Below, piece after piece: positions 62,621-62,760 of a DNA stretch of 64,000 nt. Position 1 is the stretch's first letter, and every line of letters begins with the position of its first letter. The DNA is from Escherichia coli (lineage in GTDB: Bacteria; Pseudomonadota; Gammaproteobacteria; Enterobacterales; Enterobacteriaceae). The position numbers and the translations under genes are program-made. The notes under the pieces were generated by a model. That model saw only the letters and a list, made by a program, of their open reading frames with translations, did no database searches and was not told the origin of the DNA. Where the stretch lies: assembly GCF_024223415.1 (NCBI RefSeq), contig NZ_CP100500.1; one strand, 5' to 3'.

Positions 62621-62760
62621 GCGCAGGGGGCGGCCAATCGCCGCCGCCCCCTGCACCCCCAGGCTCTGGCGAACAAAATCGCCGCTGCGCGGTTCCCTCA
62701 GCTTATCCCTTGCGGCTACCGGGTCGGGCGCAAGGGAACGCTTCGGTGATTTTGACGCCA
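62621..62760. repeat. GC-rich palindromic/structured intergenic element
   Basis: Near-perfect inverted repeat GCAGGGGGCGGC-CAATC-GCCGCCGCCCCCTGC followed by CCCTTGCG…CGCAAGGG stem and overlapping GTTCCCT/AGGGAAC alternative pairing. Confidence 0.55.

What the first reader, a model, noticed from the sequence alone, without database searches (positions are those of the whole stretch)
62621..62760. GC-rich palindromic element with mutually exclusive stems between alx and sstT
A 12-bp near-perfect inverted repeat (GCAGGGGGCGGC…GCCGCCGCCCCCTGC) is followed by a second stem (CCCTTGCG, 14-nt loop, CGCAAGGG) whose right arm overlaps an alternative pairing (GTTCCCT with AGGGAAC). This is very unlike the surrounding AT-rich promoter DNA and lies about 300-440 nt upstream of sstT. 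It could be a repetitive extragenic element (BoxC/RIP-like), a structured alx 3' end, or an sstT leader or attenuator-like RNA. A 64-aa Pro/Gly-rich ORF on the plus strand (62602..62796) is almost certainly an artefact of this GC-rich stretch.
Basis: seen in the sequence. Interest (0 to 1): 0.4.

Follow-up and report, generated by a model that had tools for sequence, protein, structure and literature searches.

The report
Decayed copy of TRIP1 repeat
The GC-rich palindromic stretch between alx and sstT is a shortened copy of TRIP1, a known structured DNA repeat found a few times per E. coli genome, so it is an ordinary, already described element and not a dedicated regulator of these two genes.

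Summary
Window 62581-62775 is 63% GC against 38% in the rest of the spacer.

It is not locus-specific. It is a copy of TRIP1 (Rudd 1999; Li et al. 2024), specifically TRIP1d, which sits 94 nt after the alx stop and 255 nt before the sstT start. 5425 of 5426 complete E. coli genomes carry TRIP1 copies, typically 3-4. K-12 has none at this locus.

The window copy is a rare allele (about 26 genomes). It lost 11 nt and 60 nt, each between 8-nt direct repeats. The "mutually exclusive stems" are a by-product of the 60-nt deletion. The 64-aa ORF is an artefact.

Beyond the literature, 69 copies from about ten enterobacterial genera share a fold with strong covariation: 97.6% paired, and 20 of 35 pairs show double changes. 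The fold is more stable on the alx/sstT-sense strand. It resembles Rfam TwoAYGGAY, with two GGA-loop hairpins, tandem G·A pairs and a long closing helix, but scores below Rfam's threshold. The window copy has lost both signature hairpins and is most likely a relic.

Novelty: already known. Interest: low to moderate.

The parts
62581..62775 (-). TRIP1 repeat, type d (alx-sstT locus), internally deleted copy of 195 nt; the full-length form is 264-266 nt. The strand given is the one on which the conserved fold is more stable and on which Rfam TwoAYGGAY matches full-length copies. It is the sense strand of alx and sstT.
   Evidence: Alignments to full-length copies at the same locus and at yohP-dusC and aqpZ-lysO. 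Position matches Li et al. 2024. GC content 63%.
62623..62654 (-). It is the 3' hairpin of the element. It has no U-tract, so it is not a canonical intrinsic terminator.
   Evidence: Across genera the stem changes while pairing is kept (for example GCCAGGGUGGU/GCCACCCUGGC and GUUAAGGGGGC/GCCCCCUUAAC), and the loop keeps GGCG(A/G).... The terminator scan finds none here.
62667..62681 (-). 3' strands of the closing helix: P1a 62667-62671 and P1b 62674-62681.
   Evidence: They pair with 62756-62760 and 62747-62754. Covariation is, helices 1 and 2 (9 of 13 pairs with changes on both sides).
62747..62760 (-). 5' strands of the closing helix: P1b 62747-62754 and P1a 62756-62760. The window copy has a G-to-A change in P1b that creates an A·C mismatch at a pair that is G-C in 69 of 69 aligned copies.
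   Evidence: I3; pair 30/163; CGGTGATTTTG against CGGCGATTTTG.
62696..62702 (-). P2 3' strand, GCU-GA-GG. It pairs with 62740-62746 (CC-GA-AGC), and the helix contains tandem G·A/A·G mismatches.
   Evidence: GA is invariant in 69 of 69 copies on both strands of the helix. The flanking pairs covary (helix 3).
62740..62746 (-). P2 5' strand, CCGAAGC.
62682..62692 (-). P5, the small hairpin CCGC-GCA-GCGG.
   Evidence: Two of its 4 pairs show compensatory changes (helix 6).
62733..62740 (.). Junction of the 60-nt deletion: a single AGGGAACG where full-length copies have two, 60 nt apart. The deletion removed hairpin HP1 (loop AUGGAU), the 5' half and loop of HP2 (loop CAGGGAC) and the 5' strand of P3.
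   Evidence: Full-length genomes span 381 nt where the window spans 310 nt.
62621..62628 (.). Junction of the 11-nt deletion: a single GCGCAGGG where full-length copies have GCGCAGGGAGCGCGCAGGG.
62706..62737 (-). It is not part of the conserved fold. Its 5' arm on the RNA-sense (minus) strand, UCCCUUGCG at 62729-62737, which is the right-hand arm on the + strand, is the orphaned 3' half of HP2, and it pairs with the GNRA-loop region.
   Evidence: (minimum-free-energy fold of the window copy) against (full-length fold) and the alignment. The pairing is not maintained in the other TRIP1 types.
62511..62580 (.). sstT-side flank of the variable cassette. It is present with TRIP1d and absent from K-12.
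62776..62875 (.). alx-side flank of the variable cassette. The boundary lies within the last alx codons.
62602..62796 (+). 64-aa Pro/Gly-rich ORF; not a gene.
   Evidence: Its frame is broken by the 11-nt indel in other copies.

Best explanation
The feature is a copy of the TRIP1 interspersed repeat at the alx-sstT locus (type TRIP1d). TRIP1 is a roughly 265-nt GC-rich element that folds, on one strand, into a long closing helix with tandem G·A pairs. That helix encloses two adjacent hairpins with A(U/G)GGA(U/C) loops, and the element also has a small hairpin and a strong 3' GC hairpin. The fold is conserved with compensatory changes across Enterobacteriaceae, so it is or was under selection as a single-stranded structure, most likely RNA. 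The window copy is a decayed allele. Two slippage-type deletions between 8-nt direct repeats (11 nt and 60 nt) and a mismatch in the closing helix have removed both signature hairpins. They left the closing helix, the small hairpin, the GC hairpin and a fortuitous new stem. Here it is most likely a functionless relic. It would be transcribed, if at all, as part of the alx 3' region, where at most it acts as a generic stable structure; like other TRIP1 copies it is also a substrate for homologous recombination. Shown: identity, copy number, deletions, conserved fold, strand asymmetry. Inferred: RNA-level selection, loss of function in this copy, the slippage mechanism.
For: Identity: the element aligns over its whole length to copies at yohP-dusC, aqpZ-lysO and putP-efeU. 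The yohP-dusC copy coincides with TRIP1c as published, NC_000913.3 2229122-2229394. It lies 94 nt after the alx stop and 255 nt before the sstT start, against 96 and 255 for TRIP1d in Li et al. 2024. Its GC content is 63%, against 62-65% published.
Repeat status: 5425 of 5426 complete genomes have matches, with a median of 3 places by megablast and 4 (up to 8) by blastn.
Polymorphism: K-12 lacks the element here. 1658 genomes carry the TRIP1d cassette, and about 26 carry the window allele.
Deletions: both are flanked by direct repeats. TRIP1b is an independent internal deletion of the same kind.
Conserved fold: 69 distinct copies from about ten genera. 97.6% of cells are paired against 82.9% in shuffles (0 of 500 shuffles as high). 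20 of 35 pairs show changes on both sides. Controls with the 3' partner slid by 1-3 columns give 33-41% paired. GA/GA is invariant in 69 of 69 copies. The hairpin stems vary while their loops are kept.
Strand: the sense fold is more stable than the antisense fold in 68 of 69 copies, by 11 kcal/mol on average.
No intrinsic terminator and no convincing promoter lie in or beside the element.
Against: No transcript data were found for any TRIP1 copy. The held supplements of a 3'-end mapping study list no ends at the K-12 TRIP1 neighbours, so RNA-level function is inferred only. In spacers between co-directional genes, the element is in the sense orientation 15 times and antisense 13 times. That does not fit an obligatory co-transcribed 3' UTR element. 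Because the remaining helices and the GC hairpin are intact, a residual role such as mRNA 3'-end protection cannot be excluded. The covariation partly reflects a few subfamilies rather than many independent events. Columns 46-55 and 63-70 of the alignment were fixed by the search pattern used to collect the copies.
Confidence: 0.8

Rival explanations
1. A locus-specific cis-acting RNA: a structured alx 3' UTR or terminator, or an sstT leader/attenuator whose alternative stems switch expression.
For: The element is co-directional with both genes. It lies 94 nt after the alx stop with no canonical terminator before it. It folds very stably, and the two stems really do overlap.
Against: The same element occurs at four other loci and in other genera. 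It is absent from this locus in K-12 and in about 69% of complete genomes. The overlapping stems were created by a 60-nt deletion and are not conserved. There is no U-tract. The sstT-proximal 185 nt, which are shared with K-12, lie downstream of the element.
Confidence: 0.1
2. A non-autonomous mobile element (MITE- or REP-like) whose hairpins are recognised as single-stranded DNA by a transposase acting in trans. The conserved fold would serve transposition, not RNA function.
For: The family is multi-copy, with about 13 places in one K. pneumoniae chromosome. Presence varies between strains. Both orientations occur at one locus. Copies strongly prefer spacers that face gene 3' ends: 36 of 67 are in convergent spacers and only 3 of 67 in divergent ones. 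The fold is strand-asymmetric.
Against: 99% of E. coli copies sit in the same five loci, so there is no sign of recent insertion. Occupied and empty alleles differ by whole cassettes, not by a clean insertion with a target-site duplication. No transposase-like gene recurs next to copies. No significant terminal inverted repeat or terminal helix was found. Tandem G·A pairs and GNRA-type loops are features typical of RNA.
Confidence: 0.1
3. A DNA-level element: a cruciform-forming site, nucleoid-protein-binding site or recombination site.
For: Both strands fold better than shuffled sequence. TRIP1 copies mediate inversions, with 156 events reported, mostly between TRIP1a and TRIP1c.
Against: Recombination follows from any dispersed 265-bp repeat and needs no fold. 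The strand asymmetry, the non-palindromic multi-helix architecture and the conserved loop sequences do not fit a simple cruciform.
Confidence: 0.05
4. A small protein gene: the 64-aa Pro/Gly-rich ORF on the plus strand.
For: An ORF with an ATG start exists. Some RefSeq genomes annotate a 'hypothetical protein' over TRIP1d.
Against: The frame is broken by the 11-nt indel between copies. Variation follows base-pairing, not codons. The composition simply mirrors the GC-rich stems.
Confidence: 0.01

Closest known systems
TRIP1 repeat family of E. coli (Rudd 1999, Res Microbiol 150:653; Li et al. 2024, Genes 15:236, PMC10888264); specifically TRIP1d
   Same: Sequence (94-100% identity to TRIP1d copies, about 88-95% to the other types), locus, distances to alx and sstT, GC content, and orientation (forward, co-directional with alx).
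   Different: The window copy is 195 nt instead of 264, because of deletions of 11 and 60 nt. The published survey required more than 80% length coverage and would probably have missed it. The paper describes TRIP1 only in E. coli and gives only single-sequence RNAfold predictions.
TwoAYGGAY RNA motif (Rfam RF01731; Weinberg et al. 2010, PMC2864571)
   Same: Full-length TRIP1 has two adjacent hairpins with A(U/G)GGA(U/C) loops closed by C-G, a short enclosing helix, a long closing P1 of about 20 bp, and tandem G·A pairs in that stem. It is multi-copy per genome, as the motif is in Psychromonas ingrahamii. One Psychromonas member has the same ACAGGGACGU second loop as E. coli.
   Different: All Rfam scores are below the gathering score of 43 bits: 30.6-39.6 bits, E-values 0.008-0.9. 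TRIP1 is far more GC-rich and has extra parts (P5, the 3' GC hairpin and a 3' tail). The window copy has lost both hairpins and gives no hit.
REP/BIME (including RIP) and BoxC repeats of E. coli
   Same: They are extragenic, GC-rich, hairpin-forming, dispersed and concentrated at gene 3' ends.
   Different: The sequence is unrelated. TRIP1 is much longer (265 nt against about 35-56 nt) and has far fewer copies (3-5 against tens to hundreds). The REP-derived Rfam model naRNA4 matches REPs in fetched loci but nothing in this spacer. The K-12 allele of this spacer carries a different repeat rich in CCCTC/GAGGG blocks.
CsrA-sequestering RNAs (CsrB/CsrC) and CsrA hairpin sites
   Same: Full-length TRIP1 presents GGA in two hairpin loops about 30 nt apart. 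The HP2 loop UUACAGGGAUGU matches 11 of 12 positions of the SELEX consensus RUACARGGAUGU, which is quoted here from memory (Dubey et al. 2005). TwoAYGGAY was proposed as a CsrA binder.
   Different: TRIP1 has only two sites. No binding has been shown. The gene-level CsrA CLIP table lists dusC and ybjE as negative. The window copy has no GGA hairpin left.

Membership tests
TRIP1 repeat (type d) | Sequence homology over the whole element to TRIP1a/b/c of K-12 | tested here: met
   The element aligns end to end with the K-12 yohP-dusC copy, which equals the published TRIP1c coordinates, and with the aqpZ-lysO and putP-efeU copies.
TRIP1 repeat (type d) | Location 96 bp downstream of the alx stop and 255 bp upstream of the sstT start, forward orientation | tested here: met
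   94 nt and 255 nt, co-directional.
TRIP1 repeat (type d) | Length about 264 bp, GC 62-65% | tested here: inconclusive
   GC is 63%, which is met. Length is 195 nt, which is not met. The shortfall is explained by two internal deletions relative to full-length TRIP1d at the same locus.
TwoAYGGAY RNA (RF01731) | Score at or above Rfam's gathering threshold (43 bits) | tested here: not met
   The window copy gives no hit at E <= 1. Full-length relatives score 30.6-39.6 bits.
TwoAYGGAY RNA (RF01731) | Two adjacent terminal loops containing AYGGAY | tested here: not met
   Not met in the window copy, where both loops are deleted. In full-length relatives loop 1 is AUGGAU, although that was fixed by the search pattern. 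Loop 2 is AUGGAU or AGGGA(U/C).
TwoAYGGAY RNA (RF01731) | Long closing P1 helix and tandem G·A pairs in a stem | tested here: met
   P1a, P1b and P2 are retained in the window. GA/GA is invariant in 69 of 69 copies, and the helices covary.
REP/BIME/RIP | About 35-nt REP palindrome units, hundreds of copies per genome | tested here: not met
   Copy number is 3-8 per genome. The REP-derived model naRNA4 gives no hit in 61000-64000, although it detects REPs in other loci.
BoxC / PIT triplex repeat | About 56-bp unit with purine/pyrimidine triplex-forming blocks, about 20-30 copies per genome | tested here: not met
   There is no similarity to the block-rich K-12 cassette at the same locus, and the copy number and length differ. 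That the K-12 sequence is BoxC rests on memory and was not tested.
MITE | Terminal inverted repeats and target-site duplication; clean filled and empty sites | tested here: not met
   The terminal duplex is no better than shuffled sequence. Alleles differ by cassettes rather than clean insertions. No recurrent transposase was found. Target-site duplications were not searched exhaustively.
Intrinsic terminator | GC-rich hairpin directly followed by a U-tract on the transcribed strand | tested here: not met
   The scan finds no such site on the minus strand in 62250-62950. The GC hairpin is followed by GCGCCAGUGAC.

The most novel reading that the evidence does not exclude
TRIP1 is the GC-rich enterobacterial branch of the orphan TwoAYGGAY RNA class. 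Under this reading it is an expressed, strand-specific structured RNA that displays two CsrA-type GGA hairpins on a rigid scaffold. Strain-to-strain presence, orientation and internal deletions, such as the one in this window, would then tune the binding of CsrA or another RNA-binding protein, or the fate of the neighbouring transporter mRNAs (alx, aqpZ, putP, copA). The window allele would be a natural null.
Probability: 0.15. Interest if true: 0.6.

Novelty: already known. Interest (0 to 1): 0.25.

Why it matters
For this window it matters little: the stretch is a degraded copy of a catalogued repeat and should not be annotated as an alx or sstT regulator or as a gene. It is useful to record that the alx-sstT spacer is a two-allele cassette and that TRIP1 copies decay by deletion between short repeats. 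The wider point is more interesting. TRIP1 has been treated only as a recombination substrate specific to E. coli. That makes its function as an RNA, or as a protein-binding site, directly testable in standard strains: K-12 for TRIP1a and TRIP1c, and BL21(DE3) for full-length TRIP1d.

Tried and rejected
- Rfam search of 61000-64000 at E <= 1 gave nothing.
- The phage collection has no match.
- 'Plasmid' matches are mislabelled chromosomes or captured chromosomal segments, for example the putP-efeU region on a 243-kb plasmid.
- BoxC, REP and RIP identities were rejected.
- The idea of a terminal inverted repeat or outer helix, suggested by GTTGCGCTCCTTTAAT against ATTAAAG-CGCAAG at aqpZ-lysO, failed: duplex energies are no better than shuffles, with z between -2.2 and +1.4.
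- No transposase or other gene recurs beside copies; the recurring 'proteins' are translations of the repeat itself or orthologous neighbours.
- The CsrA CLIP table lists dusC and ybjE as negative. This is weak evidence, because the table is gene-level and repeat-derived reads may have been discarded.
- The supplements of the 3'-end mapping study (Adams et al. 2021) show nothing at the TRIP1 neighbours.
- Literature on RSA/BEE95 repeats could not be checked because the sequences are not in the library.
- A TRIP1e reference record could not be fetched; a TRIP1e copy was found in L037 instead.
- RNAalifold misfolds HP2 and the GC hairpin because MAFFT shifts gaps there. Those two hairpins were therefore judged from per-sequence folds and left out of the pair counts.

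Full report
**1. What is in the window**

alx (62870-63835) and sstT (61081-62325) are both on the minus strand. The 544-nt spacer between them is therefore read alx to sstT on the minus strand.

- The GC hairpin has 15-nt arms at 62620-62634 and 62643-62657, with its exact core at 62623-62654.
- TCCCTTGCG/CGCAAGGGA lies at 62706-62714 and 62729-62737.
- The overlapping GTTCCCT/AGGGAAC lies at 62692-62698 and 62733-62739.

The GC-hairpin pattern is unique in the window and appears in no shuffle. The stretch 62581-62775 is 63% GC, against 38% for the rest of the spacer. It folds well beyond shuffled controls on both strands, with z = -5.0 on the minus strand and -4.0 on the plus strand.

**2. 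It is a dispersed repeat**

A 241-nt query around the element matches 5425 of 5426 complete E. coli genomes. The median is 3 places per genome by megablast and 4 (up to 8) by blastn.

Other copies lie between yohP and dusC in K-12, between aqpZ and lysO, and between putP and efeU. None is annotated.

K-12 has no copy at alx-sstT. There the alx-proximal roughly 215 nt are an unrelated sequence, and the two alleles diverge from window 62511 to about 62875, inside the last alx codons.

Aligning copies defines a full-length unit of about 265 nt, GTTGCGCTCC...CCGTGCGG.

**3. It is already described**

The unit is TRIP1, found by Rudd in 1999 as three copies in K-12 and surveyed in 6725 genomes by Li et al. 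2024 (PMC10888264).

Their TRIP1c coordinates coincide with my yohP-dusC copy. [quoted passage not shown]

They report 62-65% GC, zero to five copies per genome, one fixed locus per type, and copy-to-copy inversions. They give no function beyond single-sequence RNAfold predictions.

**4. The window copy is a decayed allele**

Compared with full-length TRIP1d at the same locus (strain B1.H1.39, locus L002), the window lacks two segments:
- 11 nt between two GCGCAGGG repeats.
- 60 nt between two AGGGAACG repeats.

It also has a G-to-A change that breaks a closing-helix pair which is G-C in all 69 aligned copies.

1658 of 5426 complete genomes (31%), including BL21(DE3), carry the TRIP1d cassette. 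In these the matched span is 381 nt rather than 310 nt. Only about 26 records match the window allele at 99% identity or more.

K-12's TRIP1b is an independent internal deletion, again between short repeats (CCCCGG(G/C)CT).

In the full-length element two AGGGAAC copies are 60 nt apart, and UCCCUUGCG is the 3' half of a different hairpin (HP2).

**5. The family and its fold (not in the literature I could search)**

A pattern scan of one genome per species returned 118 loci. BLAST confirmed about 85 copies in Escherichia (coli, albertii, whittamii and unnamed species), Klebsiella, Raoultella, Enterobacter, Leclercia, Silvania, Atlantibacter, Pseudocitrobacter and Mangrovibacter. The remaining loci were chance matches in GC-rich genomes. 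One K. pneumoniae chromosome has 13 places.

I aligned 69 distinct copies on the strand corresponding to the window minus strand. They share these parts:
- A closing helix, P1a and P1b.
- A helix P2 with tandem G·A/A·G mismatches, invariant in 69 of 69 copies.
- A short helix P3.
- Hairpin HP1, with loop AUGGAU.
- Hairpin HP2, with loop A(G/U)GGA(U/C).
- A small hairpin, P5.
Its stem changes between genera while its GGCG(A/G)... loop stays.

For 35 pairs in six helices, 97.6% of cells are paired against 82.9% in shuffles (0 of 500 shuffles as high). 20 pairs show changes on both sides. Sliding the 3' partner by 1-3 columns drops pairing to 33-41%.

The sense strand folds better than its complement in 68 of 69 copies, by 11 kcal/mol on average.

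Caveats:
- HP1's loop and the GGCCGGGGC segment were fixed by my search pattern.
- The copies fall into a few subfamilies, so the events are fewer than the cells counted.
- HP2 and HP4 were judged from per-sequence folds because the alignment shifts gaps there.

**6. Resemblance to TwoAYGGAY**

On that same strand, Rfam's TwoAYGGAY model (RF01731) matches full-length copies end to end or over the two hairpins, at 30.6-39.6 bits (E-values 0.008-0.9). This is always below the gathering score of 43. The window copy gives no hit.

The defining traits as published are:
- Two terminal loops with AYGGAY.
- A P1 stem that is often about 24 bp.
- Tandem G·A pairs in a stem.
- Not cis-regulatory.

Full-length TRIP1 has all of the structural traits. 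In Leclercia and Silvania copies both loops are AUGGAU.

The original alignment contains multi-copy members from Psychromonas ingrahamii. One of them has the same ACAGGGACGU second loop as E. coli. None of the five E. coli, Klebsiella, Enterobacter or Citrobacter accessions I searched for occurs in the stored part of that file.

I therefore say that TRIP1 looks like a TwoAYGGAY RNA, but I do not file it as a member.

TwoAYGGAY was proposed to bind CsrA. TRIP1's HP2 loop (UUACAGGGAUGU) is close to the CsrA SELEX consensus as I recall it. However, the gene-level CLIP table marks dusC and ybjE as negative. This stays a hypothesis.

**7. Context**

Using rough ORF calls around 81 copies:
- The gene 5' of the element, in element sense, ends there in 56 of 75 cases.
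- The gene 3' of the element ends there in 54 of 72 cases.
- 36 of 67 copies sit between convergent genes, and 3 of 67 between divergent genes.
- In spacers between co-directional genes, the element is sense 15 times and antisense 13 times.

In E. coli the element is sense to dusC and alx, antisense to putP and copA, and found both ways after aqpZ.

Copies therefore avoid promoter regions, as REP-type repeats do, but their orientation relative to transcription is not constrained. That weakens a simple 3' UTR mechanism.

I found no intrinsic terminator, no convincing promoter, no recurrent neighbouring gene and no significant terminal inverted repeat. No transcript ends were listed at K-12 TRIP1 neighbours in one 3'-end dataset.

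**8. Verdict**

The finding is a real sequence feature with an ordinary explanation: it is a known repeat, TRIP1d, in a rare, internally deleted and probably inert form.

It is not BoxC or RIP, not a dedicated alx or sstT riboregulator, not a switch and not a gene.

The part worth following up belongs to the family, not to this copy: its cross-genus, covarying, strand-biased, TwoAYGGAY-like fold.

Noticed in passing
window 62511-62875, compared with L004 (K-12) about 3047-3260: The alx-sstT spacer exists as two unrelated cassettes. One carries TRIP1d and is found in 1658 of 5426 complete genomes, including BL21(DE3). The K-12 type carries CCCTC/GAGGG block repeats that look BoxC/PIT-like from memory. 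The switch point lies inside the last alx codons: the window ends ...QRGE-TGA and K-12 ends ...QRGG-TAA.
   Followed up: partly
window about 3620-3706: A short repeat here is 86-88% identical to the tandem units in the K-12 ybaQ-copA spacer, so it is probably a REP/BIME-type element.
   Followed up: no
L003 2861-3316 compared with L009 2441-2923 (aqpZ-lysO spacer): TRIP1a sits in opposite orientations in different E. coli strains, with different immediate flanks. One allele has an intrinsic terminator between aqpZ and the repeat and the other does not.
   Followed up: partly
L128 about 2460-2600 (putP-efeU); also K-12 1080855-1081000: TRIP1b is an internal-deletion derivative that keeps the GC hairpin and the two ends. 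The deletion lies between CCCCGG(G/C)CT repeats. This chromosomal segment is also present on a 243-kb E. coli plasmid, NZ_CP194962.1.
   Followed up: partly
L006 2501-2720 and 2938-3157; L062 2064-2125; L031 1161-1218: In Klebsiella, two TRIP1-like copies lie 437 nt apart. In Enterobacter and Mangrovibacter, extra TwoAYGGAY-like hairpin pairs (37-40 bits) lie next to a TRIP1-like copy. This suggests local duplication or clustering.
   Followed up: no
window 63836-64000: Only about 165 nt of the alx leader are inside the window, and no Rfam family matched there at E <= 1. The regulatory leader of alx is probably cut off by the window end.
   Followed up: no
RefSeq records under hits H7, H42, H115 and H118: Some PGAP annotations place a 'hypothetical protein' over TRIP1d. 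This is most likely a spurious call on the GC-rich repeat.
   Followed up: no
L113 (583-nt contig labelled Bacillus sp. EB106-08-02-XG196) and L075 (labelled Sporobacter termitidis MAG): Short low-coverage contigs in non-enterobacterial assemblies carry TRIP1 copies that are E. coli-like (95.5% identity) or Klebsiella-like. These are probably contamination and not true occurrences.
   Followed up: no
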